NCBI GenBank assembly: GCA_038878295.1
Contig: JAVZVY010000002.1
Coordinates: 1-45,943 of the forward strand
DNA: 45,943 nucleotides
Direction of reading: 5' to 3'
Source: Candidatus Micrarchaeaceae archaeon
GTDB lineage: Archaea; Micrarchaeota; Micrarchaeia; Micrarchaeales; CABMGC01
Numbering within the stretch: the stretch's first letter is position 1; the number at the start of each line of letters is the position of its first letter. The notes beneath the pieces were generated by a model, which had not been told where the DNA came from, did not search any database, and was given only the letters and a program-made list of their open reading frames with translations. The position numbers were made by a program, and so were the translations under genes. Of the stretch, positions 1 to 15,761 are shown one piece after another.

Positions 1-3000
1 ATACAAAATGGCACACTTTACATACAAAATTCATATGGAACAATATGCATTGATTACAGCTGCCAAAGCCCAACGGCAAGCACGCCGCAGCATATCAGCA
101 TGACAGAACAGAATGTTCATGTGGCAAACTTCAACGGGCAGAGCAGTTACATAACTGTGCCAACTTCAAATGCGGTAAGCTTCAATGGCCCTTCTGTTAC
201 AGTTGCATTCTGGATCTATCCAGTGCCCTCGCAATACTGGGGTGCCAGTGGAAACTACTGGGAAAATGCTGTCAGCGTATATCCTTCAACTGCGTGCACT
301 GGAGGGGGCGCAGGTACCGGCTACAATTTCTTTATAGAGTCAGGCGGTAATCCACCTACGGAATCATGGACTGCTGACAATGTGAGGGATTTTCCTGGGA
401 AGGTTCTGCAACCATACAAGTGGCAGATGCTTGTAGGTGTAGCCAATTCTACTTACATTAACGTTTACTACGATGGAGAGCAGATAGGCACGCCAATTGC
501 TACAAATGGCATAACAACATTCACATCGCCGCCGACAATAAGGATAAGTGGTTCCCATCTAGCATCCAGTGGCCCAGGTTGCAATCCGGTTTCAGGTGAC
601 TTAGCAAATGTACAGATTTACAATACTTCTCTATCAGCAAGCGAGATTCAGGCTCTTTATCAGGAAGGGATAGACGGCACGCCAATTCAAAATGCAGGCT
701 TGGTCGGCTGGTGGCCTTTAGATGGCAACGCAAATGATTATTCTGGATTCGGAAACAACGGGGAAATAAACGGACCTGTCATTTTCACCGCAGTTTCACA
801 GCTCTTTGCAAAGGTCACAAGCGGCATAGGCTATGCTGTTTCGAATGCGCTTGTCGGCTTTACCACGACGTTCGGCTCTTTGAGCGGCTCTGGCGGCTAT
901 GGCAGTGCTACGACAAACTACACAAATTCCAATGGCATAGCCACCGCCTTTCTCAACCAGCAAGGCAACAACGGCTATGCATTGGTAAAGGCAAGCGTAT
1001 TCAACGGCAACCAATCGCTGCAAAGAAGCCTTGTCGGCTGGTGGCCTCTCAACATAAACTTCGGCACAACAGCTTATGATCTAAGCGGCAATAGGAACAA
1101 TGGCACAATAAGCGGCTATGCGGCATGGTCGTCACCAAACTTCATCGCAGGCTTTGACGGCTCAAATTCCTCTTACATACAAATCACCACGCCTGTAGCC
1201 GTCAATACAATTTCAACCGCATATACTCTTGATGTTTGGATAAACCAAAGCTATGCGCCTGCAAATCTTTTGATACTTGGCAACACTTCATGCATAGGCA
1301 TTTCGTCTTCGCCTATTTCTAAAAGCGACTACAGCATTTCTGCGTGGCTTTCAGGAAGTGCAACACCTTTTGGAAATGTGCCATACAATTCATGGCAGAA
1401 CATTGCCGTGGTGTATAATGGTATAGGCTATACAACGAGGACTGTTTATGTTAATGGCGTGGCTGTAGGAATTGACAGCTCAGGAAGCGTATCTAGCTGC
1501 AATGACTCTCCTAAAATGTGGTACAATGCATCGGCAAATGTGGCCAAGGGAGAAATGGCCAATGCACAGATGTATGCAACAGCACTATCCGCAAATCAGA
1601 TTCAGCAGCTTTACCAGGAAGGCATTTCTGCGCCGCCAATTTCAAATGCAGGCTTAGTCGGCTGGTGGCCGCTCAACGGCAACGCCAATGATTATTCTGG
1701 AAATGGCAACAATGGTACAGTATATGGCGCTATATCTTTTGTTCCACAAAATCTTGCAGCTTCAAATTATACTAGTTCACTTGCTGCAAACTTCAATGGG
1801 CAGAGCAGCGTAATTACAGCACCCATAAGTCTAAATTCCAGTTCATTCAGCATTGTTTTCTGGACCGATCCTGCAAATCAGTTGAAGATAACTAGCAGTA
1901 ACGGTTACACTGTTATGAACTCTGTTGGTACAAACACATTAGAGATCTGGCTCAATAATGGCGCAGGTGCTGGCGCGTCTCCAGGAAGTGGCGATGAAGA
2001 GCTTGGAATAGGAAGTAATTATTACCACGGCTTCGGAGTCAATGCCAATACTTGGGACTTCATAGGCGTTTCTGTTAACAATGGCAAAATAAGCTTTTAT
2101 GCAAATGGCGTCGGACCGTACAATGTAAGCGGCGTATCAGGACCATACAATGTAAATAGTATCTCTTTAGCACAATCTGCAGCAGGGATTTCGATGTTTA
2201 ATGGCAGCATTGCAAACTTCCAGATTTACAATACCGCCCTCTCAACAAGCGAAATTCAAGCTCTCTACCAAGAAGGCATTTCGGGCGTGCCGATTGCAAA
2301 TGCAGGCTTAGTCGGCTGGTGGCCTTTAGATGGCAATGCAAACGACTATTCTGGCTTTGGAAACAACGGCACTGCTACAAATGTAGGCTACGTCGGTGTA
2401 GTGAGCAGAACATATAATCCAATAAGTTCACTGAGTAATTACGGATTAAATTTTAATGGTTATGGTGGTTATGTATCTCTTCCGCCGCTGCACACACTCA
2501 ATGGTCACAACTCTTTCACGATAAATGCATGGATTAACTATGTGGGCGGCGCACAGTACTTCAATCAGAATCCTTATCCTGTCGGCTGGCCAGGATGCCA
2601 TGCAGGCTTCATGTTTAGTTCACCATCAAGCCTAACCTTTTTTGAATGGTACACGTCAAATTCGATTAATCCACCAGGCTGCCCAACGAGCGGCGGCGGC
2701 ATTGCACCCGCATCAGCAACAGTGCAGCCAAATACATCATATATGGTGACTGGCGTATACAATAACGCAACTGGTGTGCTTGACTTTTATGTGAATGGCG
2801 CGTACCATTCTTCAGCTATAGTGCCTTCTGGAGACTATATAAGCAACTACGATGAGACTGGCTACATTGGTGATGCGTTGGATGGAAACACAGGCACACA
2901 TTTCTTCGATGGCTCGGTAGGAGACGTTCAGATATACAACACAGCGCTTTCGAGCCTGCAAGTGCAGCAGCTGTATAACAGCCAGCTGCAATCAGCAAGC

Positions 3001-3030
3001 GCCACAATCCCAATGAGTTGGTATCCATGA
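1..3030 (+). CDS. Large surface protein with four LamG (concanavalin-A-like lectin, Laminin_G_3-type) modules; 5' end probably runs off the window
   Basis: Frame 1 has no stop from base 1 to the ATG at 100, so the gene is likely 5'-truncated. Four modules are bounded by LamG-type start signatures (NFNGQSSY.. / LVGWWPL[DN]GNANDYSG.GNNGT) and end signatures (.QIYNT.LS..EIQALYQEG). An Ig-like Gly/Ser/Thr-rich insert sits at about aa 226-310. Confidence 0.8.
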   Translation: MQNGTLYIQNSYGTICIDYSCQSPTASTPQHISMTEQNVHVANFNGQSSYITVPTSNAVSFNGPSVTVAFWIYPVPSQYWGASGNYWENAVSVYPSTACTGGGAGTGYNFFIESGGNPPTESWTADNVRDFPGKVLQPYKWQMLVGVANSTYINVYYDGEQIGTPIATNGITTFTSPPTIRISGSHLASSGPGCNPVSGDLANVQIYNTSLSASEIQALYQEGIDGTPIQNAGLVGWWPLDGNANDYSGFGNNGEINGPVIFTAVSQLFAKVTSGIGYAVSNALVGFTTTFGSLSGSGGYGSATTNYTNSNGIATAFLNQQGNNGYALVKASVFNGNQSLQRSLVGWWPLNINFGTTAYDLSGNRNNGTISGYAAWSSPNFIAGFDGSNSSYIQITTPVAVNTISTAYTLDVWINQSYAPANLLILGNTSCIGISSSPISKSDYSISAWLSGSATPFGNVPYNSWQNIAVVYNGIGYTTRTVYVNGVAVGIDSSGSVSSCNDSPKMWYNASANVAKGEMANAQMYATALSANQIQQLYQEGISAPPISNAGLVGWWPLNGNANDYSGNGNNGTVYGAISFVPQNLAASNYTSSLAANFNGQSSVITAPISLNSSSFSIVFWTDPANQLKITSSNGYTVMNSVGTNTLEIWLNNGAGAGASPGSGDEELGIGSNYYHGFGVNANTWDFIGVSVNNGKISFYANGVGPYNVSGVSGPYNVNSISLAQSAAGISMFNGSIANFQIYNTALSTSEIQALYQEGISGVPIANAGLVGWWPLDGNANDYSGFGNNGTATNVGYVGVVSRTYNPISSLSNYGLNFNGYGGYVSLPPLHTLNGHNSFTINAWINYVGGAQYFNQNPYPVGWPGCHAGFMFSSPSSLTFFEWYTSNSINPPGCPTSGGGIAPASATVQPNTSYMVTGVYNNATGVLDFYVNGAYHSSAIVPSGDYISNYDETGYIGDALDGNTGTHFFDGSVGDVQIYNTALSSLQVQQLYNSQLQSASATIPMSWYP
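2288..2375 (+). repeat. 88-bp perfect repeat, copy 1 (LamG module junction)
   Basis: tgccgattgcaaatgcaggcttagtcggctggtggcctttagatggcaatgcaaacgactattctggctttggaaacaacggcactgc is identical in all three copies by character-by-character comparison. Confidence 0.9.
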
Positions 3031-3557
3031 AAGCTCAGTTCTGGTCTTTCGATGTCATATTTGCAATGGTGATATTCTCCCTAGTTATAGTCATACTCAC
3101 ATACGTTTGGTACAGCATCAACAGCCAGCTTTCCCTATCTGAAGGCTATGGCATACAAAACATACAGATGCAGCTGCTAGTGCTCAGAAACACGATCATG
3201 TCACAGGGAAGCCCTCCGGACTGGAACAATATAGTAATTGCAAACCAAACAAGCACATGGAGCAACATAACTGCAGGTCTTGGCACTGGGCAGGGCAATG
3301 AGATATCGCTGCAGAAGGTGATGACGCTTATGGCGATGTCAAACTATGATTACCAAGCGACAAAGCAGGTCATTGGCATAGGCTTCGATTATTATATAAG
3401 CATAAATTGGAATGGCTTTACAATATACTTGGGCCGCAATCCGGCATATTACAATGCAAAGTCCATACAGGTGGTGCAGATTCCTGTTATGATGAATGGA
3501 GTTCCTGGCACCATGACAGCAGAAGTGTGGACCAATACGAGCTTTGGAGTTGGTTAA
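3027..3557 (+). CDS. Pilin-like protein with archaeal class III (prepilin-type) signal peptide, about 176 aa
   Basis: The ATG at 3027 overlaps the upstream stop (ATGA); TTG at 3018 is the longest-ORF alternative. The N-terminus MKA|QFWSFDVIFAMVIFSLVIVILTYVW has a short charged leader, K-A-Q, then about 22 hydrophobic residues. Confidence 0.65.
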   Translation: MKAQFWSFDVIFAMVIFSLVIVILTYVWYSINSQLSLSEGYGIQNIQMQLLVLRNTIMSQGSPPDWNNIVIANQTSTWSNITAGLGTGQGNEISLQKVMTLMAMSNYDYQATKQVIGIGFDYYISINWNGFTIYLGRNPAYYNAKSIQVVQIPVMMNGVPGTMTAEVWTNTSFGVG

Positions 3558-5714
3558 ATGCGCGCAGTAATATTCACGCTTGATGCTGTGTTCGCGCTTA
3601 TCGTAGCTTCGGTAAGCATCTCCATACTTCTATATGTAAACTATATAACTCCAACCCCATATACGCTCCATTATTCGGAAGCTGCGTCGATAATGCAGGA
3701 ACTCAGCTCGGCTTCGATAAGCAGCATAGCTTCGTCGAATCCGATTGCCTACTCAATAGTGCAACAGTCCAACGGCGAAAACGAAACATGGCCTATGCAG
3801 ATGAAGAATGCATATGGCGATGCGGGCAACCCTTACGGACCCATTGCACCGCTACTTTATGTTGTATTCACAGCTAATTCACCGATTACAACGCCTGTGA
3901 TTGCAGACTATGGAAAACTGTTCTTTGCAAGCTCTAATGTCTTGTATGCTGTCAACGCCACTACAGGCTCGCTTGCATGGACAAAAAGCACGCAGACAAG
4001 TGTGAGTGGCTCGCCGGCTGTATACGACGGCGTGCTATTCTATTCAAATACCTCTGATATAGTTGCAGTAAATGCCCAAAATGGCGCGCAGGTGTGGTCC
4101 ACCAATGCGCTCTCAGGCGTAGCGCTCTCCGCGCCTATACAGGTCTATGCAGGCAAGCTCCTTCTTGGTGCGATTAACAACAACCTTTATGCTGTTTATG
4201 CAAACAATGGAACTGTTGCATGGAGCATATCCGTAGGGGCTCCTCCAGCGTCTATAGTCGCTGTTGACGGCTCGATTGCAGTAAGGACAACATCAAATAT
4301 GGTGGCCCTGATAAGCGGCACTTCTAATAGCATGGTCGTTGCTTGGAGCAAATCATTCCCAGCTTCAACAACTGCACTCTCAAGCCTTGGCAACGCGTTC
4401 GTATACGGAGTGGGAACTTATGCTAATGCAACATACACCGACGGCTCATCTGATTTCTCGTACAGCACAGGTCAGACGGTCAACGGTAGCACAGCTTATA
4501 GGGGCATTGCAGCATATCAGCTTCGAAGCGGCGACGGCGTAATAACTGCAAGCGGTACAGGCGTATGGAGTTTGCCTATGCCAAGCAGCTTCGGCTATGC
4601 TTACTTTGGCGCAGAGCCTGTGCTCTCTGATGGCTTCCTCTATACGCTCTGGTCCAACAATACCATAGTGGCGCAAAACGCAAGCACTGGCAGCATAGTG
4701 TGGCACACAAGCGTTCCAAAGCAGTTTATAGGCGGCGATGATGCTTTGAGCCCGCAGATGGCCCTCGCTTATGGCAGGCTTTACATTATCGCAAACAATA
4801 AGATTCTTGCCTATGGATCGTGCAATGCGCAAGCAAACGACAACATACTGCATGCGGCTGCACAGCTGTATATTAATGGCGATGGAAGCTGCGCGACAGC
4901 ATTGGCTGATTACATGAGGCCGATGGCTAATTATAGTATATTGATAAACAACACATACGCGCCTGGGATGGAAGCTGCATCATTCAACGGCGCCAGCAGC
5001 TACATAAACCTGCTCGGCAATGCATCGCTGATGTCAAATGACTATACATGGGCATTTTGGATCAAGCCAAGCACATGGAATGCAAATGCAATGATAATAG
5101 GCGAGAATACAAATGCAGCAGGTGCGCCGTATCTTGAAGAGCAGGTAAATGCTACATCAGACCGCTACCAATTCAGCGTCAATGGCAGTTCTGCCCATGG
5201 TACAGTCTATGCGAAGGCAAGCGTGGGCAGCTGGCAGTTTGTCGTTGCAGAATACAGTATAACCACAGAATCCATGTATATATACGTAAACGGTTCACTG
5301 GCATCGACGCAGAAGAAAGTGCTGACAACAAGAACTCCAGGCAACATAACCGTTGGCTGGTCGCCTATAACAAATCTCTATTTCAATGGCGAAATGGCAG
5401 ACCTGCAGATTTACGACACTGAGCTTTCAGCCCAGCAGGTCGAGCAGCTTTATCTGCGGGGCATTGGCGGTGGGCCTGTTGATACGCAGGATCTTGTTGC
5501 ATGGTACCCACTTGAAGGTGATACAAACGATTATAGCGCAAAGCCAATTGTAAATACAGGTTATGCCGTCGGCATTTCTTATGCCCCGAGCGGCTATCTG
5601 CCGCTTTCGCTCTCAAATGCGTTCGAGATAAGCAAAAGCACTGTGAGCATGCCGCTCGTGAATGCGAGTGGCTTTTCGAGAATCTATAATGTAGGTGTGT
5701 ACACGTGGAGATAA
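3558..5714 (+). CDS. Pilin-like N-terminus fused to a PQQ-type beta-propeller and one LamG module (718 aa)
   Basis: The ATG directly follows the upstream stop. The N-terminus is MRA|VIFTLDAVFALIVASVSISILLYV. Repeated propeller-blade motifs are LYAVNATTGSLAWT, IVAVNAQNGAQVWS, LYAVYANNGTVAWS and IVAQNASTGSIVWH. The LamG module runs from SFNGASSYINL to LQIYDTELSAQQVEQLY. Confidence 0.75.
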   Translation: MRAVIFTLDAVFALIVASVSISILLYVNYITPTPYTLHYSEAASIMQELSSASISSIASSNPIAYSIVQQSNGENETWPMQMKNAYGDAGNPYGPIAPLLYVVFTANSPITTPVIADYGKLFFASSNVLYAVNATTGSLAWTKSTQTSVSGSPAVYDGVLFYSNTSDIVAVNAQNGAQVWSTNALSGVALSAPIQVYAGKLLLGAINNNLYAVYANNGTVAWSISVGAPPASIVAVDGSIAVRTTSNMVALISGTSNSMVVAWSKSFPASTTALSSLGNAFVYGVGTYANATYTDGSSDFSYSTGQTVNGSTAYRGIAAYQLRSGDGVITASGTGVWSLPMPSSFGYAYFGAEPVLSDGFLYTLWSNNTIVAQNASTGSIVWHTSVPKQFIGGDDALSPQMALAYGRLYIIANNKILAYGSCNAQANDNILHAAAQLYINGDGSCATALADYMRPMANYSILINNTYAPGMEAASFNGASSYINLLGNASLMSNDYTWAFWIKPSTWNANAMIIGENTNAAGAPYLEEQVNATSDRYQFSVNGSSAHGTVYAKASVGSWQFVVAEYSITTESMYIYVNGSLASTQKKVLTTRTPGNITVGWSPITNLYFNGEMADLQIYDTELSAQQVEQLYLRGIGGGPVDTQDLVAWYPLEGDTNDYSAKPIVNTGYAVGISYAPSGYLPLSLSNAFEISKSTVSMPLVNASGFSRIYNVGVYTWR

Positions 5715-8323: not shown

Positions 8324-8333
8324 CTGGCTGCTG

Positions 8334-9350
8334 CTACGGCGCCGCAGGCGCACCGCCTGCTCCGCTTATTGTCGAGAATATGCCATGTATAGCAGCGCCC
8401 GTTATGAAGAATATCGCAAAGCCGACAAGCAGGAAAATAGGCAGATATCTAATGCCTCTTGTTACTGAGCCGCTTGCGACAGCTGAAACTATCAATGCCC
8501 CAAACGCAGTAATGATAAATATGGCGCCCATCGCGAAGTCCTGATACTGCGTTGTGGTTATCTTAGGCGGCGACGGCCTAAGAAATGAAACGCCAGTTGT
8601 CGGCAACCCGCCTGGATTCTGCGCGAGTATTCCGCGCCACACCTGATTGGTCACGCCTATCATCTGCGACGTAAGGCCATACATGACTGGCGCGCCTATT
8701 AGAGCGGCGAAGGCTATGAATATAGTGTACATGAAGAGCTGGCCTGATATTTCCTTCTGTATGGTCTGCTGGTTTCTTATGTCCTTTGCAACCTGGTTCA
8801 AGAGATCGGACATGCCGCCGCCATACTGCACAGCCTCGTTCATCATTCTTACGGTGTGCTTCAATGTGTTTGACCTATATTTCTCGGCTAGATGCACCAG
8901 GGCGTTCTGCAGAGTTTCACCGGCGTATAGCCCTTTTGCTGTAAGTTTAACGTCTTCGCTGAAGTACTTGAATTCGGGTCTTGCAGCAAGCACCATAGCT
9001 CTGTCAAGGGCTATTCCGCTTCTCACGTTTGCCGCAACAAGCTGGAGGTAGTCCGGAAGTATGCTCTCAACGAACGTCTTCCTCTGGTCTATCTTCATGC
9101 TGAGCACAAAATAGATTGACGCTTCAAACACGACAAGCGCAACTATTCCGAGCGCCACGGATAGGGCAAAATGCAGTTTGAAAGCGAGGAAGGCGACATA
9201 TGAAGATATAGTCATAAGCAATATTCCTCCCACTATCATTATAGCAAGAAGCCTGTTTATCGTCATTTTTACTCCTGCAAGGTCAAGCTCTCTTGATAGC
9301 AATACGACGACGTTCCTCGAAACAAGCCTCTCGAATGGTATCTCTCTCAT
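8334..9350 (-). CDS. Type II secretion system F-domain platform protein (TadC/PilC/FlaJ-like), paralogue 2
   Basis: 338 aa with N-terminal TM helices, a cytoplasmic helical bundle (LPDYLQLVAANVRSGIALDRAMV..) and C-terminal TM helices. It is a tandem paralogue of the upstream gene and last in the ATPase operon. Confidence 0.7.
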   Translation of the reverse strand: MREIPFERLVSRNVVVLLSRELDLAGVKMTINRLLAIMIVGGILLMTISSYVAFLAFKLHFALSVALGIVALVVFEASIYFVLSMKIDQRKTFVESILPDYLQLVAANVRSGIALDRAMVLAARPEFKYFSEDVKLTAKGLYAGETLQNALVHLAEKYRSNTLKHTVRMMNEAVQYGGGMSDLLNQVAKDIRNQQTIQKEISGQLFMYTIFIAFAALIGAPVMYGLTSQMIGVTNQVWRGILAQNPGGLPTTGVSFLRPSPPKITTTQYQDFAMGAIFIITAFGALIVSAVASGSVTRGIRYLPIFLLVGFAIFFITGAAIHGIFSTISGAGGAPAAP

Positions 9351-9354
9351 TGCA

Positions 9355-10389
9355 TCACATCGCGAAAGTCGGCCTTGACGAACGCATTATGTTTAGGAAG
9401 ATGATCTGCAGGAAAGCTATGCCTATAAGGACGAAAACCAATGTCGAAGCATCTATTGTGAAGAGACTTATGAATGTAGTGAGTATGGCAAGAACGGCAA
9501 TGCCCATGCTTGGGAATATCACCCCGAAAAGCATGTAGAACATGGCCAGCGCGTTGAGCCTCTGACCGTATCTTCGTAAGTCTATGACCCTCTCCTGCGT
9601 GACTTCCTCTACGACACCCTGCAATGCGCCCACAATGTCGGCTCCTGCTTTTATGCTCACAGAAGCCTGAAGCATTATCCTCTTGAAGGTCTTTGACTCG
9701 CTTTTCTCGCTCACTTCCTCTATGGCCTGCTCTATCGGCATGCCGAGCTCAACGCGCTCGACGATTTTGGCGAATTCCCTGCTCGCCGCGCCGTAGCCCG
9801 TGCTTACCGCGACGATCGCGTTGAAAAGGGGCATTCCAGAACGCATGCCTATGACTATATCCCTTGCCGCAAAGAGAATGTCCCGCTCTATTTCCTTGCC
9901 AACATTCTTGCCCTTGGCCACAGGATAGTTGATGAACCTCGCGAAAAAGGTCTTGAACATACCGTAGAAAATTGCTGCACCGAGTATGATTGTCAAGGCT
10001 ATGTTGAAGCCGTAATGGATAAACACAACAATTATGGTAGCGGCTATTATTGCGCTGACTATTATGGAATTTGTAAGCATCTTCTTTACGAACTGGTCTG
10101 GCGTGGACTTTATTCCTTGCTCCTTCAGCGCGATTGGCAGATCTTTGTTTTTGGCCAGCAGCTTCGCGACATACATCTGGAACCAAGTGAGCTTCTGCTG
10201 CGGTGCTGTCTGCGGAGGCGCATTTTGCTTCTGCTGCTTCTTGAGAAGCTCCTCGATGCGCGACTCAGCGGCACTTTTTTGCTGATATATCGGCTTTGAT
10301 TTTATTTTGAAAAAAAGGAATCTCTTCTGCTTTGTGAAGCCTACCGGCTTTTGCTCAGCACTAGCAGCATTCTTCTTGAACAACGACAT
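9355..10389 (-). CDS. Type II secretion system F-domain platform protein (TadB/PilC/FlaJ-like), paralogue 1
   Basis: 344 aa. It has an about 100-aa Lys/Gln-rich cytoplasmic extension, then the same TM / helical bundle (ERDILFAARDIVIGMRSGMPLFNAI..) / TM layout as its neighbour. Only 4 nt separate it from the next gene. Confidence 0.7.
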   Translation of the reverse strand: MSLFKKNAASAEQKPVGFTKQKRFLFFKIKSKPIYQQKSAAESRIEELLKKQQKQNAPPQTAPQQKLTWFQMYVAKLLAKNKDLPIALKEQGIKSTPDQFVKKMLTNSIIVSAIIAATIIVVFIHYGFNIALTIILGAAIFYGMFKTFFARFINYPVAKGKNVGKEIERDILFAARDIVIGMRSGMPLFNAIVAVSTGYGAASREFAKIVERVELGMPIEQAIEEVSEKSESKTFKRIMLQASVSIKAGADIVGALQGVVEEVTQERVIDLRRYGQRLNALAMFYMLFGVIFPSMGIAVLAILTTFISLFTIDASTLVFVLIGIAFLQIIFLNIMRSSRPTFAM

Positions 10390-10400
10390 GATTGCACCGG

Positions 10401-10976
10401 TTATTTAACCTTTGAGAGCTTTGCCTCCGCTTCCTCAAGCCTCTTCGCGCGCATAGCGGCAAGCGAGGCCTGGAACGCATCGAGAGACTTGGACTTTTCA
10501 TACCTTAAAGTCTCGGCGAGCCCGAAGATCTCCTGCCTTATTATCTTAAGCTGCTCACCATTAAAAACGTTCTCATCAAGACCCTCGTTTATTTTCTCTA
10601 GTTCAGAGAGCTGGTCCTGAAGCGAGAGCGTTGGCAGCACGAGCTTGCCGACCTTTACCTTTTCGATCTCTTTAAGCACGCTCTCCTCGAATTCTATGCT
10701 GGCCTTGCTTACAAGCTTCTTTATCTCCTCGGAAACTTCTTTTGTTTCTGTGGGCTGGGCGCGCTGAACCTGCAATGGCTGCTGCTGTATTGCAGGTTGC
10801 GGCTGCGGTTTCAGCCCTTCTACACTCGATATGATTCTGTAAGCATCCTCATATTTGTATGCGCTTTCCTGTATTCTATTCTTGAGAGCGCTTTCAGGAT
10901 CTATTATTACAGATTCGTTCTGCGTCGAAACAGATTCTATCTCGCTTACCAGCTTCACTGCATCCGCGTATTCCAT
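10401..10976 (-). CDS. Hypothetical acidic protein with Gln/Pro linker and C-terminal coiled coil
   Basis: 191 aa with no TM segment. It has a PQPQPAIQQQPLQVQ linker and a Glu/Lys-rich heptad-like C-terminal half. No family was recognised. Short gaps wedge it between the ATPase and platform genes. Confidence 0.5.
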   Translation of the reverse strand: MEYADAVKLVSEIESVSTQNESVIIDPESALKNRIQESAYKYEDAYRIISSVEGLKPQPQPAIQQQPLQVQRAQPTETKEVSEEIKKLVSKASIEFEESVLKEIEKVKVGKLVLPTLSLQDQLSELEKINEGLDENVFNGEQLKIIRQEIFGLAETLRYEKSKSLDAFQASLAAMRAKRLEEAEAKLSKVK

Positions 10977-10995
10977 GATAGCGCCTATACTTTAA

Positions 10996-12507
10996 TTATA
11001 CCTTAAACAATTCATCTGAGTATGGCAGGCCTTTGTCAACTATGTCCATGACGCTTTGGCTGTTCTTGTAGTACTTTGCGACAACGTAACCGGCCTCGTT
11101 GACTCCGAAAACCTTGTTTTTGACCATCCATTCAAGGACTTTTTTCTTTTCGTCAATGTTTGCATACATTTCTTCTCTTGAGTAGCCCCCATAAAGCATT
11201 ATTGTGTCTGCGAGTCTTGACGGCTCGGCGATTCTGCTGAATGTGTCGTTCCTCACATTCCACCTGAAGAGAACGTTTGCGTCGCCTGTATCGAGTATTT
11301 CGCCGAACTCCAGAAGGCGTCTAATTCCGAGACGCCTGTGCCTGAATAGAGTCGCTATCCCGCCAATCGCGTTAATCAGGATCTTTGGCACGTCTATGGG
11401 CGGATTTGTCATCCTTACTATTGTGTCTTGCACGTTGTCCGCGTGCACAGTGCCGTAAACCGCGTGCCCAGTATGTATGGCTTCGAAGAGCGTTTCGGCA
11501 TCTTGCTTGATCCTCACCTCGCCTATGAGCATTATGTCAGGCCTCTGCCTTAATGCGTTTATCATCAGGTTGTAAAGCGTGACTTCGCCCTTGCCTTCTG
11601 GATTAGGCTGCCTCGTTAGCATCGGTACCCAATGGAGGAAATCTGGCAGCGTGAGTTCTCTAGTTTCTTCAACTGATATTATTCTCCTGTTTGCGGGCAT
11701 GAATATGCTCATCGCGTTGAGAAAGCTTGTCTTTCCGCTTGCTGTGCCTCCAGATATAAGCAGGCTGACCTCATTTTGTATGCTCAGCCAGACCAGAGCG
11801 GCAAGCTCGCTGGTTATAGTGCCGTTGGCTATGAGCATAGGCATTGTCCACGGATTTTTGGCGAACTTTCGTATTGTTATCGTGTTACCGAACTGTGATA
11901 TTGGATAGAGGGTGGCATTTACTCTGGAGCCGTCAGGCAGCTCGGCGTCCATGAGCGGCGAGATGTTTGTTATCTGTCTGCCCACGCGCCTGCCTATGTT
12001 CTCAGAATAGTCGTATATTGTCTCTTCATTCTGTATTCTTATTGTAGTCTTGCACCAACCATATTTCTTATGGAACACCCAGACGTTTTCCTTTGAGCTG
12101 TTCACAGCCACTTCTTCGAGATTCTCATCTGCAAGAGGAATCTCAAGTTCACCCAATCCGAGCATCATGTTTATTATGTAGGCTATAAGCACTTTCTTAG
12201 CCTCGTCGCTCGTCCCAGGGAGGTATTTGTCTATCACAACATTTGATGCATCTACGTACCTAGCAGTTAATTCATCGGCGTATTCTTTGTCTTCTATTCT
12301 GGTTGGATCTATCGGCACGAGGCTAAGCAACTCGGGCCTCATCGAATTTAGGAGTATTTTCGACGCATCGCCAAGACCGACAACGTTTACTTTGTACTCC
12401 AATGCGAATTTGCCTGTATCCTCTATGCTTATGTCGGCTTTGAGACCGTGAACGTCCAGGGTGTACGATGCGAGAACATTACCGGCCGTTACATTATCGT
12501 CAGTCAA
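10996..12507 (-). CDS. Type IV pilus / archaellum-type secretion ATPase (FlaI/PilB/TadA family)
   Basis: Walker A is GGTASGKTSFLNAM, the Walker B region is PDIMLIGEVR and the His box is GHAVYGTVHA. At 503 aa it has a FlaI-like N-domain. Confidence 0.9.
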   Translation of the reverse strand: MTDDNVTAGNVLASYTLDVHGLKADISIEDTGKFALEYKVNVVGLGDASKILLNSMRPELLSLVPIDPTRIEDKEYADELTARYVDASNVVIDKYLPGTSDEAKKVLIAYIINMMLGLGELEIPLADENLEEVAVNSSKENVWVFHKKYGWCKTTIRIQNEETIYDYSENIGRRVGRQITNISPLMDAELPDGSRVNATLYPISQFGNTITIRKFAKNPWTMPMLIANGTITSELAALVWLSIQNEVSLLISGGTASGKTSFLNAMSIFMPANRRIISVEETRELTLPDFLHWVPMLTRQPNPEGKGEVTLYNLMINALRQRPDIMLIGEVRIKQDAETLFEAIHTGHAVYGTVHADNVQDTIVRMTNPPIDVPKILINAIGGIATLFRHRRLGIRRLLEFGEILDTGDANVLFRWNVRNDTFSRIAEPSRLADTIMLYGGYSREEMYANIDEKKKVLEWMVKNKVFGVNEAGYVVAKYYKNSQSVMDIVDKGLPYSDELFKV

Positions 12508-12517
12508 TCAAACACCA

Positions 12518-13714
12518 TTATTTTGCAATATTGTTTATGTCGTCATTCAGTTTATCAAGCTTTTCGCGCGTAGACGCTGCATTTCTGGAAAGCTTCTTGG
12601 TCCTTTCCTCTAGGCCCTTTGCCGCTACGGCTTTTTTCTCTATATCGGCTTCCGACATGGCCAGTATGGCTCTGCTCTGGTTGAGCAGAGCGTTGATTTC
12701 TTTCTCCAGGTCGTCGCGCTCCTTCTTTATATTTGCTATGTCTTCCGAAGCTTTATTTATCTCTTCATGAATCTTCGAAAAGTCGCCGAAACCCTGCTTC
12801 AGTTGGGCGAGCTTCTCATTCGCAGAGCTGAACTTCTGCTCTATCGCCGAAAAGGCGGCATCAGCATCCTGTGCGCTTTTTGCAACCATGTCAATCAAAG
12901 CAACCTTATGCCGCTCTACTCGTTTTGATATTTCTTCGCTAGCGTGCTTGTACTCATCAATGAGCTTAAGGTTACTACGAAGGGTGTGCTCTTGCTCAGC
13001 AAGGGTACGCATGGAAAGCTCAGCCTCAGTCCTGATACTGTTTATTATTGCGCTTACTTCGCTTCTGTATTTACTTATCATCTTCTCAGATTCGTTGTTG
13101 AACGACTTCGCGGTGGATTCAATTAGTTTTATCTTCTCTTCCATGTCGCTTATTACCTTTCTGATTTCGGATTCCCCTGACGTTATACCGCTTATCGCTT
13201 TTGCCCTTTCCTCAAGAGCTGCTATCTCCTTAGCCACGGCTTCATGCGCCTTGTCAATGTATTCCTTCCTGCTGCGGACTTCCTTATACCTGCTTTCTAT
13301 GACGCTACGTATTTTGTCTATCTCCTTCAGATCATTTGAGACTTCGCCAGACTTCCTCTTAAACAGCAGGTCCGTGTCCTTTATCAGCTTGGAGAGCGCA
13401 TCGAGCTTTGCATTCATTTGACCAAGCAGCGTGGCCTGCGTCTCGAGTTCGTTTACCGCAGTTGTGGTTTTTTCGTTTATTGTATGCTTAAGAACCTCGG
13501 CGTGATCCTTTGATACCGCTATTGGGGTAACGAACATGCGCCCGCTCCTGTAGTTTATCTTTACTATATCAGCCTTTTCCAGCACATCTGCCCACTCTTC
13601 GATAACATGCTCACCTACTTTGAGAGCAGTGGCCAGTGTGGCAACGTCAGTTTCCCCATGCGTTTTTAGGTAGTCTATAAATTTATCTATACTGGTCGTG
13701 ACTTCCTCAGTCAT
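12518..13714 (-). CDS. Winged-helix N-domain fused to an about 320-aa coiled coil; hypothetical, first gene of the pilus-machinery operon
   Basis: The ATG is at 13714; GTG at 13732 is the longest-ORF alternative. The N-terminus IDKFIDYLKTHGETDVATLATALKVGEHVIEEWADVLEKADIVKINY looks like a wHTH. The rest is Glu/Lys/Ala/Ser-rich helical sequence. It lies 10 nt upstream of the ATPase gene. Confidence 0.55.
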   Translation of the reverse strand: MTEEVTTSIDKFIDYLKTHGETDVATLATALKVGEHVIEEWADVLEKADIVKINYRSGRMFVTPIAVSKDHAEVLKHTINEKTTTAVNELETQATLLGQMNAKLDALSKLIKDTDLLFKRKSGEVSNDLKEIDKIRSVIESRYKEVRSRKEYIDKAHEAVAKEIAALEERAKAISGITSGESEIRKVISDMEEKIKLIESTAKSFNNESEKMISKYRSEVSAIINSIRTEAELSMRTLAEQEHTLRSNLKLIDEYKHASEEISKRVERHKVALIDMVAKSAQDADAAFSAIEQKFSSANEKLAQLKQGFGDFSKIHEEINKASEDIANIKKERDDLEKEINALLNQSRAILAMSEADIEKKAVAAKGLEERTKKLSRNAASTREKLDKLNDDINNIAK

Positions 13715-13810
13715 CAAATCATATACACACACAGATTAAAAGGATTTAATTCTTTCGTTGCCTAACTGCAACTTTGCAAACAGCTGTGAATACTTGATGA
13801 TACGCGCTGA

Positions 13811-14548
13811 TCATGAACCGCTTCGCTTCATTGCTCCAATTATTGAGCTTGCTATCTCGTCGCCAATAGCGTGCTCTGGAAGGACTAGATGGCTTACCCC
13901 GGCGCGGCGCATCCTTGGTATATCCTCCTCTTTCTTAATTCTTGCGGCAACCTTTATCCTGCTGTTGAGGTGCTTTGCGGCTATCACAGAAAGGGTGTTT
14001 TCCATATCGTCCTCGCCGAGGAGCACCAGCGCGTAGGCTTTTTGCGCGTTGGCTGCACTAAGCGACGCAATTTCTTTTGGAGTGCCTTCTATCGCGATCA
14101 TTTTTTCCCTAATCGCGGCGTCGACTTTCTGCCTGTTTCTATCGATTATCACAAATGGCACATTTGAAGCTGCTAGCTTTTTGGACATTTCCGCAGCGAT
14201 CTTATTGAATGGCGTCATGATTATGTGATTAGAAGCCTTGCGCGCCTTGTCTGCTACCGCCTTCCTCTTGAAGTTTACCTTGCCCATCAGGTCGTACAAG
14301 ATCGTCGTAACAAGTATTACGAACATCAGTTCTCCGATTATCTCTATGGAAAGAGCCGCAACAACTAGTGGGTTCGCTGTATCGACAAGGGCTTCGCTCG
14401 GCGGAAGCTCGACGCCTATAATGTTTATGAAACTCCAAATAACAGCTATGAAGAAGTCCTTTTCAACCGTATAAATGGCTACGGTGGAAGCTGCGAATAT
14501 CGCAAGCATGCTTATTATAAGCAGTTTTTGTATTGCTCTCATGATCAA
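13811..14548 (-). CDS. Membrane protein with 2-TM channel-like N-terminus and RCK/TrkA-N domain (no canonical K+ filter)
   Basis: It has TM1, a pore-helix-like segment (DFFIAVIWSFINIIGVELPP), TM2, then a Rossmann RCK domain (HIIMTPFNKIAAEMSKKLAASNVPFVIIDRN..). No T-V-G-Y-G motif was seen. Confidence 0.65.
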   Translation of the reverse strand: MIMRAIQKLLIISMLAIFAASTVAIYTVEKDFFIAVIWSFINIIGVELPPSEALVDTANPLVVAALSIEIIGELMFVILVTTILYDLMGKVNFKRKAVADKARKASNHIIMTPFNKIAAEMSKKLAASNVPFVIIDRNRQKVDAAIREKMIAIEGTPKEIASLSAANAQKAYALVLLGEDDMENTLSVIAAKHLNSRIKVAARIKKEEDIPRMRRAGVSHLVLPEHAIGDEIASSIIGAMKRSGS

Positions 14549-15333: not shown

Positions 15334-15341
15334 GCGCAGTT

Positions 15342-15761
15342 TTAGAAGCCCTTCGATATCTCCTTGAAGAGCTCGTCGCTTGCAGACTTTGCAGGAGTGG
15401 CGATGAACTTCACGCCAACATCGATAAACTTCTCCTTTAGAGAATCGTCGTTTACCCTTGTGGCTATGATTATCTTCTCGTTAAGGCTCTTGGCAGTTAT
15501 TGAAGCGAAGAGGTTTTTGGCGTCGTCATCGAGCACTATCGCTATCGCTTTCGCGTTTGCTATGCCTGCTTCCTTTAGTATTTTTGAAGAGGTAGCGTCG
15601 CCCTTTATAACGTCTATTCCGCGCTCCCTCAGTATTTCGACTTTCTCAGGATCGATCTCGACAACCACAACGCTTATGCCATTCTCAAGCAGTATGTCGA
15701 CGACGCGCTCGCCCACAAGGCCGTAGCCGCATACTATCACATGATCCTTGAGCTCTTCCAT
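15342..15761 (-). CDS. Soluble TrkA-N/RCK domain protein
   Basis: 139 aa. HVIVCGYGLVGERVVDILLENGISVVVVEIDPEKVE..GDATS is a classic NAD-binding-type RCK fold signature. Confidence 0.85.
   Translation of the reverse strand: MEELKDHVIVCGYGLVGERVVDILLENGISVVVVEIDPEKVEILRERGIDVIKGDATSSKILKEAGIANAKAIAIVLDDDAKNLFASITAKSLNEKIIIATRVNDDSLKEKFIDVGVKFIATPAKSASDELFKEISKGF

What the first reader, a model, noticed from the sequence alone, without database searches (positions are those of the whole stretch)
1..13732. Type IV pilus/Tad-like machine facing giant LamG-lectin proteins that carry prepilin-type signal peptides
Three consecutive + strand genes open with a short charged leader, K/R-Ala, then about 22 hydrophobic residues. 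The N-termini are MKA|QFWSFDVIFAMVIFSLVIVILTYVW, MRA|VIFTLDAVFALIVASVSISILLYV and ..FKA|QLMTLLVLILFVLMLAELMIFVAV, which fits the archaeal class III signal pattern. Their mature parts are about 176, 715 and 865 aa. They are built from a PQQ beta-propeller and LamG lectin-like modules rather than a small pilin head. A fourth, 5'-truncated gene adds four more LamG modules. These genes converge, with a 10-bp gap, on an operon encoding a FlaI/PilB ATPase, two separate T2SSF platform paralogues and two uncharacterised proteins. The two-paralogue arrangement recalls bacterial TadB/TadC and, as I recall it, methanococcal EpdJ/EpdK. The simplest reading is a filament or pseudopilus that displays lectin modules and serves as a cell-cell or cell-surface attachment apparatus. 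No prepilin peptidase and no small major pilin lie in the window.
Basis: partly seen in the sequence, partly recalled or inferred. Interest (0 to 1): 0.8.

Follow-up and report, generated by a model that had tools for sequence, protein, structure and literature searches.

The report
Lectin-tipped pilus locus of Micrarchaeota
This stretch of a tiny symbiotic archaeon (Micrarchaeota) encodes a type IV pilus motor next to a conserved set of pilin-like proteins, most of which carry large sugar-binding (LamG) and propeller domains; it is probably a sticky-tipped filament for attaching to other cells, and is a new example of a known design rather than a new kind of machine.

Summary
Window 1-13732 carries four + strand genes with LamG and PQQ-propeller domains. 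They converge, across a 10-bp gap, on p404, a T2SSE ATPase, p191 and two single-domain T2SSF genes. The three full-length + strand genes have K/R-Ala leaders followed by about 22 hydrophobic residues.

I add three points:
- The 5'-cut gene is 1139 aa and starts MFRKA|QFSVEF, a textbook class III signal.
- A small pilin-like gene (153 aa) lies just upstream of the window.
- The organism is a Micrarchaeaceae (DPANN) MAG.

In 41 of 53 relatives with enough flanking sequence, the ATPase/two-TadC operon is followed by these genes, usually in the same order. Each family has its own conserved N-terminus: Q+1/E+5, Q+1/E+5, Q+1/D+6, D+6, none. An Aenigmarchaeota locus has the same five genes without LamG, so the lectins are C-terminal grafts on minor-pilin modules. 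AlphaFold2 gives ORF1 a pilin-like architecture.

This is an Epd-like ("system 1") archaeal type IV filament with modular lectin pilins. The LamG/T4P linkage in Micrarchaeota, adhesins with class III signals, and bacterial LamG modular pilins are all published. No prepilin peptidase is in the window, though cultured relatives encode one. Adhesion is inferred. I rate it a new member of a known kind, of moderate interest.

The parts
1..3030 (+). ORF0, a giant modular pilin-like protein. It is cut at the 5' end by the window; the full length is 1139 aa in contig JAVZXF010000002.1. It has a class III signal (MFRKA|QFSVEF) and 4 Pfam Laminin_G_3 stretches.
   Evidence: The orthologue N-termini fit [KR][ASMIL]|Q..xE, with E+5 in 9 of 9.
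3027..3557 (+). ORF1, a small pilin-like subunit of 176 aa (179 aa from the TTG at 3018). Its N-terminus is MKA|QFWSFD and it matches no Pfam domain.
   Evidence: 62 homologues were found; every source name given places them in Micrarchaeota. Q4 F5 W6 S7 D9 are invariant in the 45 aligned. The AF2 model has pLDDT 86.8, a helix at 8-58 and a 4-stranded sheet at 121-169. D+6 is present in 29 of 29 orthologues.
3558..5714 (+). ORF2, a 718-aa modular pilin-like protein. It starts MRA|VIFTLDAVFAL, then has a PQQ/BamB-type beta-propeller and one LamG domain.
   Evidence: K[GA]|[FIVL].F[TS].DA is conserved, with D+6 in 25 of 25 orthologues. The orthologue in L078 is only 172 aa.
5705..8323 (+). ORF3, an 872-aa modular pilin-like protein with a GTG start. 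It begins MEIRFKA|QLMTLLV and has no acidic residue at +5/+6. An N-terminal module of about 385 aa with no known domain is followed by 2 LamG domains.
   Evidence: E+17 in 20 of 28 orthologues. In the AF2 model, residues 1-190 have block pLDDT mostly 50-80 and show a long helix plus a 4-stranded sheet; residues 192-392 are unreliable. The Aenigmarchaeota homologue of 428 aa lacks LamG. Another assembly calls this gene from the ATG at Met10, which removes the signal.
8334..9350 (-). TadC/T2SSF platform paralogue 1 (338 aa, one T2SSF domain).
   Evidence: The A_DKE orthologue is annotated arCOG01811.
9355..10389 (-). TadC/T2SSF platform paralogue 2 (344 aa, one T2SSF domain).
   Evidence: The A_DKE orthologue is annotated arCOG01812. 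Two TadC genes are present in 53 of 53 informative loci.
10401..10976 (-). p191, a conserved and highly charged (32% charged residues) accessory protein of unknown fold, presumably cytoplasmic.
   Evidence: It lies immediately downstream of the ATPase in 58 of 79 loci.
10996..12507 (-). Assembly ATPase of the VirB11/T2SSE family (503 aa).
   Evidence: The best solved relatives are the A. fulgidus secretion ATPase 2OAP (E 2e-67), FlaI 4II7 and CpaF. It is 60-77% identical across most Micrarchaeota. The A_DKE orthologue is annotated arCOG01819.
12518..13732 (-). p404, a conserved protein with a long coiled coil (35% charged residues), first gene of the motor operon.
   Evidence: It lies immediately upstream of the ATPase in 63 of 75 loci. 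It has the highest transcript level of the locus in A_DKE (Micr_00441, TPM 5.0).

Best explanation
The locus encodes an archaeal type IV filament machine of the Epd-like kind ('clade 1' / 'system 1'). The motor is an assembly ATPase, a platform split into two TadC-like proteins, and two conserved cytoplasmic accessory proteins.

Its substrates are an ordered set of five pilin-like proteins: pil153 (just outside the window), then ORF0, ORF1, ORF2 and ORF3. Each has an N-terminal class III signal and a hydrophobic helix, which form the pilin module. In Micrarchaeota three of them carry large C-terminal grafts: about 7 LamG lectin-type domains and one PQQ-type beta-propeller in all.

**Proposed mechanism**
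1. An EppA-type prepilin peptidase, encoded elsewhere in the genome, removes the short leaders.
2. The five N-terminal helices assemble on the platform into a staggered complex that primes the filament and stays at its tip. This would resemble the bacterial minor-pilin HIJK complex or S. sanguinis PilA-B-C.
3. ORF3, the only subunit with no acidic residue at +5/+6, may be the cap.
4. The filament body, or a short stalk, is built from pil153 or from a small pilin encoded elsewhere.
5. This pushes the lectin and propeller array through the S-layer, where it binds glycans on other cells. For this DPANN episymbiont the most likely target is its host.

**Shown here:** gene content, signal motifs, conservation of the linkage, the modular-graft pattern, and a pilin-like model for ORF1.

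**Inferred:** cleavage, tip location, the cap role of ORF3, glycan binding, and the host as target.
For: - **Domains and gene map:**
- **ORF0 and pil153 in full:** ORF0 starts MFRKA|QFSVEF, and a 153-aa pilin-like gene lies upstream.
- **Organism:** Candidatus Micrarchaeaceae.
- **Linkage:** 41 of 53 informative loci have these families within 9 kb downstream of the TadC pair. In 30 the first downstream gene is a convergent family member. In 22 of 24 loci the order is ORF3-ORF2-ORF1-ORF0. All 53 have two TadC genes.
- **N-terminal signatures conserved across relatives:**
  - pil153: Q+1/E+5 in 5 of 5
  - ORF0: Q+1/E+5 in 9 of 9
  - ORF1: Q+1/D+6 in 29 of 29
  - ORF2: D+6 in 25 of 25
  - ORF3: an acidic residue at +5/+6 in only 1 of 28
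- **Match to EppA substrates:** these are defined by a conserved Q+1 and E+5 (PMC4371748).
- **Grafting:** Aenigmarchaeota locus L081 has the same five genes in the same order, at 141, 148, 175, 608 and 428 aa. Its ORF0-type and ORF3-type homologues lack LamG. In L078 the ORF2-type gene is 172 aa.
- **Structure:** AF2 of ORF1 gives pLDDT 86.8, with a helix at 8-58 and a 4-stranded sheet.
- **Composition:** the five proteins have 6-9% charged residues, 24-30% N+S+T and 1.3-2.3 N-glycosylation sequons per 100 aa. The accessory proteins p191 and p404 have 32-35% charged residues.
- **Expression in a relative:** the A_DKE orthologues Micr_00441-00450 are transcribed in co-culture, and A_DKE has an arCOG02300 EppA/PulO peptidase.
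- **Mia14:** the orthologous locus was assigned to the Methanococci/Thermococci T4P group, and that genome has an A24 peptidase.
- **Precedent:** S. sanguinis PilC is a ConA-like lectin pilin at the pilus tip that binds glycans. PF13385 is among the most frequent bacterial modular-pilin architectures.
Against: - No prepilin peptidase was found in the window, in the 3' flank (read from sister assemblies), or among multi-TM neighbours in relatives. The rest of this genome could not be searched.
- The -1 residue is L, M or I in pil153 of this contig and in several orthologues (4 of 5 pil153-type, 3 of 9 ORF0-type, 4 of 29 ORF1-type). That is outside the G/A/S rule, so some members may not be cleaved.
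- Pfam and NCBIfam recognise no pilin family in any of the five proteins.
- Foldseek finds no solved pilin similar to the ORF1 model. The best hit has E 0.016 and TM 0.24, to ribosomal proteins.
- The ORF3 N-terminal model has low confidence.
- No clear major pilin was identified.
- 12 of 53 loci lack the linked genes.
- LamG domains are not always lectins.
- I found no report that these proteins sit on Micrarchaeota pili. Cryo-ET of a Micrarchaeota co-culture noted only thin filaments 'that could represent archaeal pili'.
Confidence: 0.62

Rival explanations
1. **Bindosome-like surface display.** The class III signals and the ATPase/TadC pair serve to insert the large binding proteins and organise them into a short pseudopilus or an envelope-embedded array. 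This is how the Bas system of Saccharolobus handles sugar-binding proteins. No long pilus forms, and the purpose could be capture of polymers or nutrients rather than cell-cell attachment.
For: - Large non-pilin proteins with class III signals, dependent on a dedicated ATPase/platform pair, are established in Sulfolobales (PMC4371748, PMC4858521).
- No obvious major pilin was found in or next to the window.
- The ATPase gives a sub-threshold BasE match (128.8 bits against a cutoff of 1000).
- Five pilin-like proteins alone could form only a short stalk.
Against: - No ABC transporter or substrate-binding-protein fold is linked to the locus.
- The system has the two-TadC, Q+1/E+5 hallmarks of Epd-type pili, which do make filaments in Methanococcus (PMC4371748).
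- pil153, or a small pilin encoded in trans, could be the major subunit. A 68-aa class III pilin, Micr_00425, exists in A_DKE.
- Thin filaments have been seen on Micrarchaeota cells.
Confidence: 0.2
2. **Ordinary signal-anchored surface lectins.** The N-termini are uncleaved type II membrane anchors or Sec signals. The LamG proteins work independently of the neighbouring ATPase operon, and the adjacency is a conserved but functionally unrelated synteny.
For: - The -1 residue is non-canonical (L/M/I) in several orthologues.
- No pilin HMM matches.
- No peptidase is in the window.
- LamG proteins are generally expanded in DPANN, and many are predicted to be Sec-secreted (PMC9563170; PMC5498576).
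Against: - A plain anchor would not need invariant Q+1 with E+5 or D+6, held in family-specific register across phyla.
- The same five N-terminal modules occur without any LamG domain in Aenigmarchaeota, co-directional with the ATPase operon.
- The ORF1 model has a 50-residue helix plus a small head, as pilins do.
- The linkage and gene order are conserved in most loci.
Confidence: 0.1
3. **Secretion or transfer machine.** The filament acts as a type II-secretion-like piston, or as a conduit for exporting proteins or exchanging DNA or metabolites with the host. The LamG proteins would be cargo or docking factors.
For: - The ATPase's closest solved relative is deposited as a 'Type II secretion system protein' (2OAP).
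- Authors of the Mia14 paper speculated about DNA exchange through type IV pili.
Against: - No secretin or other channel component is linked.
- The LamG proteins themselves carry the pilin-type N-termini, so they are subunits rather than cargo.
- No DNA-processing genes are linked.
Confidence: 0.05

Closest known systems
Epd pilus of Methanococcus maripaludis, with the 'clade 1' (Makarova 2016) or 'system 1' (2026 preprint) archaeal type IV filament loci
   Same: - A VirB11-family ATPase with two separate TadC-like platform genes (EpdL with EpdJ and EpdK).
- Several co-encoded proteins with class III signals, Q at +1 and E at +5.
- A dedicated EppA-type peptidase, often encoded elsewhere.
- Large ConA-like 'adhesin' proteins in the locus.
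- A small major pilin that may be encoded in trans.
- The Mia14 orthologous locus was assigned to this group.
   Different: - The adhesin domains here are Laminin_G_3 and a PQQ propeller, not DUF2341.
- They are fused directly to at least three of the five conserved pilin modules.
- The accessory proteins p191 and p404 are specific to this DPANN version.
- No EppA, FleN/MinD gene or ~70-aa pilin is in the window.
- The pilin operon converges on the motor operon rather than being co-directional with it.
Modular type IV pilins of bacteria, in particular Streptococcus sanguinis PilC (ConA-like lectin module) and PilB (vWA module)
   Same: - A pilin module is joined to a functional module that is not specific to pili.
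- PF13385/ConA-like lectin modules are among the commonest grafts.
[quoted passage not shown]
- CPR bacteria, the bacterial counterparts of DPANN, are rich in such proteins.
   Different: - This system is archaeal, and its signals are of the archaeal EppA type rather than the bacterial G|F..E type.
- The grafts are much larger, up to 4 LamG domains per protein and about 7 LamG plus a propeller per locus.
- Binding has not been tested.
Bacterial minor-pilin tip complexes (GspH-I-J-K; FimU-PilV-W-X with PilY1)
   Same: - A conserved, ordered operon of four to five pilin-like genes.
- One bulky subunit lacks the +5 acidic residue (GspK/PilX there, ORF3 here).
- A beta-propeller adhesin sits at the tip (PilY1 there, the ORF2 propeller here).
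   Different: - No sequence or Foldseek similarity was detected.
- PilY1 is not a pilin, whereas here the propeller is fused to a pilin module.
- The cap role of ORF3 is only an analogy.
Bindosome (Bas) system of Saccharolobus solfataricus
   Same: Large binding proteins with class III signals depend on a dedicated ATPase/platform pair and on small pilin-like proteins.
   Different: - The cargo there is sugar-binding proteins of ABC transporters. None is linked here.
- Bas has a single platform protein.
- The BasE model scores far below its cutoff.
Bacterial Tad/Flp pilus (TadA/CpaF, TadB, TadC)
   Same: - The platform is split into two single-domain T2SSF proteins.
- The ATPase is related to CpaF (E 2.4e-45).
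- Tad is thought to derive from the archaeal Epd system.
   Different: - No Flp-type headless pilin, secretin (RcpA), TadZ or other Tad components are present.
- The ATPase is closer to archaeal GspE and FlaI than to CpaF.

Membership tests
Archaeal type IV filament, Epd-like (clade 1 / system 1) | Secretion ATPase of the VirB11/T2SSE family | tested here: met
   PF00437 at E 5.8e-33. The best solved relatives are archaeal GspE 2OAP, FlaI and CpaF.
Archaeal type IV filament, Epd-like (clade 1 / system 1) | Platform encoded as two separate TadC-like genes | tested here: met
   There are two adjacent genes with one T2SSF domain each. The same holds in 53 of 53 informative related loci.
Archaeal type IV filament, Epd-like (clade 1 / system 1) | The ATPase falls in the clade 1 / arCOG01819 branch of the archaeal ATPase tree | not testable with these tools
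   No arCOG library or reference tree was available. The A_DKE orthologue is annotated arCOG01819 and its TadC genes arCOG01812 and arCOG01811. The Mia14 orthologous locus was assigned to the Methanococci/Methanothermobacteria/Thermococci group.
Archaeal type IV filament, Epd-like (clade 1 / system 1) | Pilins with a conserved Gln at +1 and Glu at +5 (EppA-type substrates) | tested here: met
   pil153 and ORF0 have Q+1/E+5. ORF1 has Q+1/D+6. ORF3 has Q+1 in this genome. ORF2 has V/F/I at +1 with D+6. The criterion is taken from PMC4371748.
Archaeal type IV filament, Epd-like (clade 1 / system 1) | An EppA-type (arCOG02300) prepilin peptidase in the genome | not testable with these tools
   It is absent from the window, from the 3' flank read in sister assemblies, and from the neighbours checked. 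The rest of GCA_038877615.1 could not be read. It is present in A_DKE (Micr_00634, arCOG02300). Mia14 has an A24A peptidase, MIA14_0570.
Archaeal type IV filament, Epd-like (clade 1 / system 1) | A small major pilin | tested here: inconclusive
   There is none in the window. A 153-aa pilin-like gene lies just upstream, but its role as major or minor pilin is unknown. In this system class the major pilins are typically stand-alone genes.
Type IV pilin / class III signal peptide protein | A short charged leader with K/R at -2 and G/A/S at -1, followed by about 20 hydrophobic residues | tested here: met
   ORF0, ORF1, ORF2 and ORF3 pass. So do 80 of 101 orthologues, against 50 of 903 other genes. 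Exception: pil153 of this contig has Leu at -1, and L/M/I occurs at -1 in a minority of orthologues.
Type IV pilin / class III signal peptide protein | Pilin fold: an extended N-terminal alpha-helix packed on an antiparallel beta-sheet head | tested here: inconclusive
   The ORF1 AF2 model has this architecture (pLDDT 86.8). Foldseek finds no significant match to any solved pilin. The ORF3 model has only mid-range confidence over residues 1-190.
Type IV pilin / class III signal peptide protein | Leader cleaved by an A24 prepilin peptidase, and the subunit incorporated into a filament | not testable with these tools
   This needs biochemistry, N-terminal proteomics or cryo-EM.
Modular pilins (sensu Raynaud et al. 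2021) | An N-terminal pilin module fused to a functional domain that is not specific to type IV filaments | tested here: met
   Class III N-termini are fused to PF13385 and PQQ domains. Homologous pilin modules occur alone in L081, L085 and L078. The definition was drawn up for bacterial IPR012902 proteins.
Bacterial Tad/Flp pilus | A Flp-type pilin, with TadZ, RcpA secretin and other Tad components alongside TadA/B/C | tested here: not met
   Only the ATPase and the two platform proteins have counterparts. No other Tad family was hit in the window.
Saccharolobus bindosome (Bas) | BasE/BasF equivalogs, with ABC-transporter substrate-binding proteins as the class III cargo | tested here: not met
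   NF053672 BasE scores 128.8 bits against a cutoff of 1000. No SBP or ABC genes are linked.
PilY1/PilC tip adhesin | A C-terminal PilC/PilY1-type beta-propeller on a non-pilin protein | tested here: not met
   The ORF2 propeller matches PQQ/BamB-type families only. It sits on a protein with a pilin-type N-terminus.

The most novel reading that the evidence does not exclude
The five pilin modules form a dedicated host-recognition head. In this reading it is a short, ATP-driven, extensible tip complex carrying about 7 lectin domains and a propeller. The modules are swapped and duplicated between lineages; ORF0-type proteins range from 148 to 1146 aa and ORF3-type from 187 to 1547 aa. The head would set the host range of Micrarchaeota by reading the glycocalyx of wall-less Thermoplasmatales. 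It would then be the DPANN counterpart of the pili that Saccharibacteria use for episymbiosis, and the first molecular handle on how ARMAN-type cells find and hold their hosts.
Probability: 0.3. Interest if true: 0.7.

Novelty: new member of a known kind. Interest (0 to 1): 0.45.

Why it matters
Micrarchaeota (ARMAN) are obligate episymbionts of Thermoplasmatales, and the molecules that mediate contact are unknown. This locus is near-universal in the phylum. It is transcribed in the cultured A_DKE co-culture. It gives concrete, testable candidates: the orthologues Micr_00446 to Micr_00450 and the genes following MIA14_0173.

The analysis adds three things to the literature I could find:
- The 'LamG surface proteins' next to the pilus genes are themselves pilin fusions.
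- They belong to an ordered five-gene pilin set shared with other DPANN.
- The lectin modules are lineage-specific grafts.

It also extends the 'modular pilin' idea from bacteria to archaea. Finally, it shows that start-codon calls (863 aa against 872 aa for ORF3) can hide these signals in public annotation.

Tried and rejected
- **Pfam and NCBIfam on the N-terminal parts of all five proteins.** No pilin or class III family was reported, and there was only LamG-level similarity to TafC.
- **Foldseek of the ORF1 model against the PDB.** There was no significant hit; the top hits were ribosomal chains at TM about 0.24. The pilin claim therefore rests on architecture, not on a fold match.
- **AF2 of ORF3 residues 1-392 with a 7-sequence alignment.** Mean pLDDT was 47.9. 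Residues 1-190 have block means of 39-81, and residues 192-392 are below 50. I did not run a fold search on it.
- **The homologue search for the ORF3 N-module.** It returned only 7 proteins.
- **hhalign comparisons.** ORF1 against the ORF2 N-terminus is similar only over the first 64 residues (probability 80%). ORF1 against the ORF3 N-module shows nothing.
- **PDB sequence searches.** Searches for p191, p404 and ORF0 gave nothing useful.
- **Hunt for a prepilin peptidase.** I looked in the window, in the 3' flank read from sister assemblies, and among 63 multi-TM neighbours in 80 loci, 10 of which were scanned with Pfam. I found only M50-type proteases, ABC-2 permeases, an MscS channel and unknowns.
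- **Strain variation in ORF3.** I suspected it between near-identical assemblies (863 aa against 872 aa) and rejected it. The DNA compared around the start is identical and the proteins match 863/863, so only the start call differs.
- **Sigma-70 promoter and terminator scan.** It was uninformative for an archaeon, and counts were at shuffle level.
- **Direct repeats in ORF0 and ORF3.** They are ordinary diverged domain duplications at 64-84% identity, not a cassette system.
- **Krause et al. 2022.** The main text does not discuss pili. Only the supplementary table was useful.

Full report
**1. What is in the sequence**

The first 13.7 kb of the window hold nine genes in two convergent blocks.

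On the + strand:
- ORF0 (1..3030) runs off the 5' end of the window.
- ORF1 is 3027..3557, 176 aa (179 aa from a TTG at 3018).
- ORF2 is 3558..5714, 718 aa.
- ORF3 is 5705..8323, 872 aa, with a GTG start.
- These genes abut or overlap by a few bases.

On the - strand, 10 bp after the ORF3 stop, lie five genes in this order along the window:
- two T2SSF genes (8334..9350 and 9355..10389)
- a 191-aa gene (10401..10976)
- a T2SSE ATPase (10996..12507)
- a 404-aa coiled-coil gene (12518..13732)

Pfam confirms the domain content:
- ORF0 has four Laminin_G_3 stretches.
- ORF2 has a PQQ-type propeller plus one Laminin_G_3.
- ORF3 has two Laminin_G_3.
- Each platform protein has one T2SSF domain.
- The 191- and 404-aa proteins match no family above cutoff.

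The rest of the window is archaeal housekeeping: topoisomerase VI A, LonB, diphthamide synthase, FEN1 and polyprenyl synthase. It contains no A24 peptidase.

**2. What the window hides**

The window is part of contig JAVZXF010000002.1 of assembly GCA_038877615.1. Reading upstream gave three results:
- ORF0 is 1139 aa and begins MFRKA|QFSVEFMIVFSFVLLVFLFLF. This is a textbook class III signal with Gln at +1 and Glu at +5.
- Immediately before it lies a 153-aa gene, MARYKL|QSSFELLITLSLGLAILLPIV, here called pil153.
- Before that lie a CBS-domain gene and a divergent exosortase-like gene.

The + strand block is therefore an operon of five consecutive pilin-like genes, not three plus a LamG gene.

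ATPase homologues and the titles of related genome records identify the organism as a Candidatus Micrarchaeaceae archaeon, which belongs to the DPANN group.

**3. Is the class III pattern more than chance?**

I applied a FlaFind-like rule: K/R, then G/A/S, then 22 residues with at most 2 charges and mean hydropathy of at least 1.6, close to a start codon.
- Relaxed to also allow L/M/I at -1, the rule picks ORF1, ORF2 and ORF3 in the window at real annotated starts. Apart from them, only a K+ channel helix passes at a real start.
- In 80 related loci, the strict rule fires on 80 of 101 members of these families and on 50 of 903 other genes.

Each family also keeps its own N-terminus across the phylum:

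| Family | Consensus N-terminus | Acidic residue |
|---|---|---|
| pil153 | K[LG]\|QSSFE | E+5 in 5 of 5 |
| ORF0 | [KR][ASMIL]\|Q..xEF | E+5 in 9 of 9 |
| ORF1 | [KR][AGLM]\|QFWSFD | D+6 in 29 of 29 |
| ORF2 | K[GA]\|[FIV].F[TS].DA | D+6 in 25 of 25 |
| ORF3 | [KR][GA]\|[QIV]L.T | at +5/+6 in 1 of 28; Glu at +17 in 20 of 28 |

Gln at +1 with Glu at +5 is the published signature of substrates of EppA, the second, larger prepilin peptidase of Epd-type pili (PMC4371748).

One caveat: the -1 residue is Leu, Met or Ile in pil153 of this contig and in a minority of orthologues. That is outside the usual G/A/S rule, and I cannot explain it.

**4. Structure and composition**
- *ORF1 model.* With a 45-sequence alignment, AlphaFold2 models ORF1 at mean pLDDT 86.8. 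It shows a helix at residues 8-58, two short helices, and a four-stranded antiparallel sheet at 121-169. This is the pilin 'lollipop'.
- *ORF1 fold search.* Foldseek found no significant PDB match. The support is therefore at the level of architecture only.
- *ORF3 model.* The N-terminal 392 residues of ORF3 gave a poor model (pLDDT 47.9). Its first 190 residues, at mid-range confidence (block means mostly 50-80), again show a long helix plus a four-stranded sheet.
- *Composition.* The five + strand proteins have 6-9% charged residues, 24-30% Asn+Ser+Thr and 1.3-2.3 N-glycosylation sequons per 100 residues. This fits extracellular proteins of an acidophile. p191 and p404 have 32-35% charged residues, which fits cytoplasmic proteins.

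**5. Linkage in relatives**

A scan of species-representative genomes with an ATPase alignment returned 80 loci. Almost all are Micrarchaeota. They include the cultured Ca. Micrarchaeum harzensis A_DKE (L048) and Ca. Fermentimicrarchaeum (L074).

Results from my ORF and HMM maps:
- All 53 loci with at least 2.5 kb after the platform genes have two TadC genes.
- 41 of the 53 have LamG or ORF0-3 family genes within 9 kb downstream.
- In 30 of the 53, the first downstream gene is a convergent family member.
- In 22 of the 24 loci with three or more such genes, the order is ORF3-ORF2-ORF1-ORF0, as in the window.
- p404 directly precedes the ATPase in 63 of 75 loci, and p191 directly follows it in 58 of 79.

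**6. The lectins are grafts on conserved pilin modules**

This is the most informative comparison.

An Aenigmarchaeota locus (L081) has, co-directional with p404-ATPase-TadC-TadC, five genes in the same order and with the same family-specific N-termini:

| Size | N-terminus | Type | Note |
|---|---|---|---|
| 141 aa | RKG\|QIAVEY | pil153 | |
| 148 aa | TKA\|QSTIEF | ORF0 | pilin module only |
| 175 aa | RKA\|QSWTMD | ORF1 | |
| 608 aa | SKG\|FIFTMDA | ORF2 | |
| 428 aa | SKG\|IFFSMIAV | ORF3 | aligns to residues 69-372 of ORF3; no LamG |

Other observations point the same way:
- In L078 the ORF2-type gene is only 172 aa.
- Within Micrarchaeota, lengths and LamG counts vary widely. ORF3-type proteins range from 187 to 1547 aa and ORF2-type from 411 to 756 aa, with or without LamG.

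The conserved unit is therefore a set of five pilin modules. The LamG and propeller domains are lineage-specific C-terminal additions. This matches the 'modular pilin' concept defined in bacteria, where PF13385 is among the most frequent grafts (PMC8179133). In S. sanguinis, PilC is a ConA-like lectin pilin that binds glycans from a tip-located minor-pilin complex (PMC9934059).

**7. Which system is it?**
- The ATPase's nearest solved relatives are the archaeal secretion ATPase 2OAP, then FlaI, then CpaF.
- Two single-domain platform genes together with Q+1/E+5 pilins are the hallmarks of the Epd pilus: EpdL with EpdJ and EpdK, and the peptidase EppA.
- The same hallmarks define Makarova's 'clade 1' and the 2026 preprint's 'system 1', which is reported in methanogens, Thermococcales and DPANN.
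- In A_DKE the orthologous genes are Micr_00441-00450. The authors annotated the ATPase as arCOG01819 and the TadC genes as arCOG01812 and arCOG01811.
- All ten A_DKE genes have non-zero TPM in co-culture, from 5.0 down to 0.34. Smc, for comparison, has 1.43.
- The A_DKE genome has an arCOG02300 EppA/PulO peptidase, Micr_00634. According to Makarova et al., arCOG02300 occurs only in organisms with clade 1 systems.
- For Mia14, the orthologous locus MIA14_0170-0177 was assigned to the Methanococci/Thermococci group, and an A24A peptidase (MIA14_0570) is listed.

I could not search the rest of this particular genome. The peptidase question is therefore answered only for relatives.

**8. Mechanism proposed**

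Shown here:
- a motor operon (ATPase, split platform, two conserved accessory proteins);
- a conserved five-gene pilin set, three members of which carry lectin or propeller grafts in Micrarchaeota.

Inferred:
- an EppA-type peptidase trims the leaders;
- the five helices assemble on the platform into a priming complex that remains at the filament tip, as for bacterial HIJK or PilA-B-C complexes;
- ORF3, the only subunit lacking an acidic residue at +5/+6, caps the complex, as GspK and PilX lack E5;
- a major pilin (pil153, or a small pilin encoded in trans) extends the filament through the S-layer;
- the LamG and propeller array binds glycans, most plausibly on the wall-less Thermoplasmatales host.

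Rivals:
- a bindosome-like short display structure (0.2);
- uncleaved signal-anchored lectins unrelated to the motor (0.1);
- a secretion or transfer device (0.05).

**9. Novelty**

Already published:
- Golyshina et al. [quoted passage not shown]
- Makarova et al. 2016 modelled large ConA-like (DUF2341) proteins in clade 1 loci as tip adhesins.
- The 2026 preprint mentions a protein with a class III signal and a galactose-binding domain in the Epd cluster.
- Bacterial LamG modular pilins are experimentally established.

What I did not find in the papers searched:
- the explicit statement that the Micrarchaeota LamG and propeller proteins are themselves pilin fusions;
- the ordered five-gene set with its E5/E5/D6/D6/none pattern;
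- the evidence that the lectins are grafts.

I therefore rate this a new member of a known kind. Interest is moderate (0.45), chiefly because it gives testable candidates for host attachment in cultured DPANN systems.

Noticed in passing
window 38093..39418 (+): There is a second, 'orphan' T2SSE ATPase (441 aa) with no T2SSF gene beside it. It sits between an HhH-GPD glycosylase and topoisomerase VI A, and is at the same place in sister assemblies (L086, L087). Orphan PilB homologues in archaea have been speculated to act in retraction (PMC4371748).
   Followed up: partly
L004 5515..5976 (contig upstream of the window; about 470-930 bases before window position 1): A 153-aa pilin-like gene (MARYKL|QSSFELL, with E+5) is the first of the five-gene pilin set. 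Its predicted -1 residue is Leu. L, M or I at -1 also occurs in 3 of 9 ORF0-type and 4 of 29 ORF1-type orthologues. This is non-canonical for prepilin peptidases and is unexplained.
   Followed up: partly
L004 4386..5528 (+) and L004 2598..4118 (-): A CBS-domain protein (380 aa) overlaps the start of the small pilin gene, and this adjacency recurs in L028, L043 and L051. It may be a regulator. Divergent from it is a 506-aa Exosortase_EpsH-like membrane protein. None of the LamG proteins has an obvious C-terminal sorting signal.
   Followed up: no
window 5705..5731: ORF3 is called from the GTG at 5705 here (872 aa). In assembly GCA_038876995.1 it is called from the ATG at Met10 (863 aa), although the DNA around the start is identical and the proteins match 863/863. 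The shorter call removes the leader and the cleavage site, so public annotation can hide the class III signal.
   Followed up: yes
window 592-782, 1546-1736, 2200-2390, 7241-7431, 8045-8235: There are five copies of a 191-nt direct repeat, 64-84% identical to the reference copy, in ORF0 and ORF3. It encodes the end of a LamG domain plus the linker ...EIQALYQEGI.G.PI.NAGLVGWWPLDGNANDYSG.GNNGT. It reflects domain duplication and may be a substrate for module shuffling.
   Followed up: partly
window 13811..15761 (-): Three consecutive TrkA_N (K+ channel/regulator) genes lie next to p404. The same neighbours occur in A_DKE (Micr_00436-00438). Many relatives also have an M50-like HExxH membrane protease of about 230-250 aa just upstream of p404 (Micr_00440 in A_DKE).
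   Followed up: no
window 25407..31560: A cluster of CysD-like PAPS_reduct and CysN-like GTPase genes lies next to a GT4 glycosyltransferase, a sulfatase-like protein and a carbamoyltransferase. It may be a module for modifying surface glycans by sulfation or carbamoylation.
   Followed up: no
L016, L021, L023, L031, L032 (upstream of p404): A recurring block of unannotated multi-TM proteins (about 376-403 aa, 6-8 predicted TM segments, no Pfam match for the four scanned) and 537-549-aa proteins lies upstream of the motor operon in several Micrarchaeota. Its function is unknown.
   Followed up: partly
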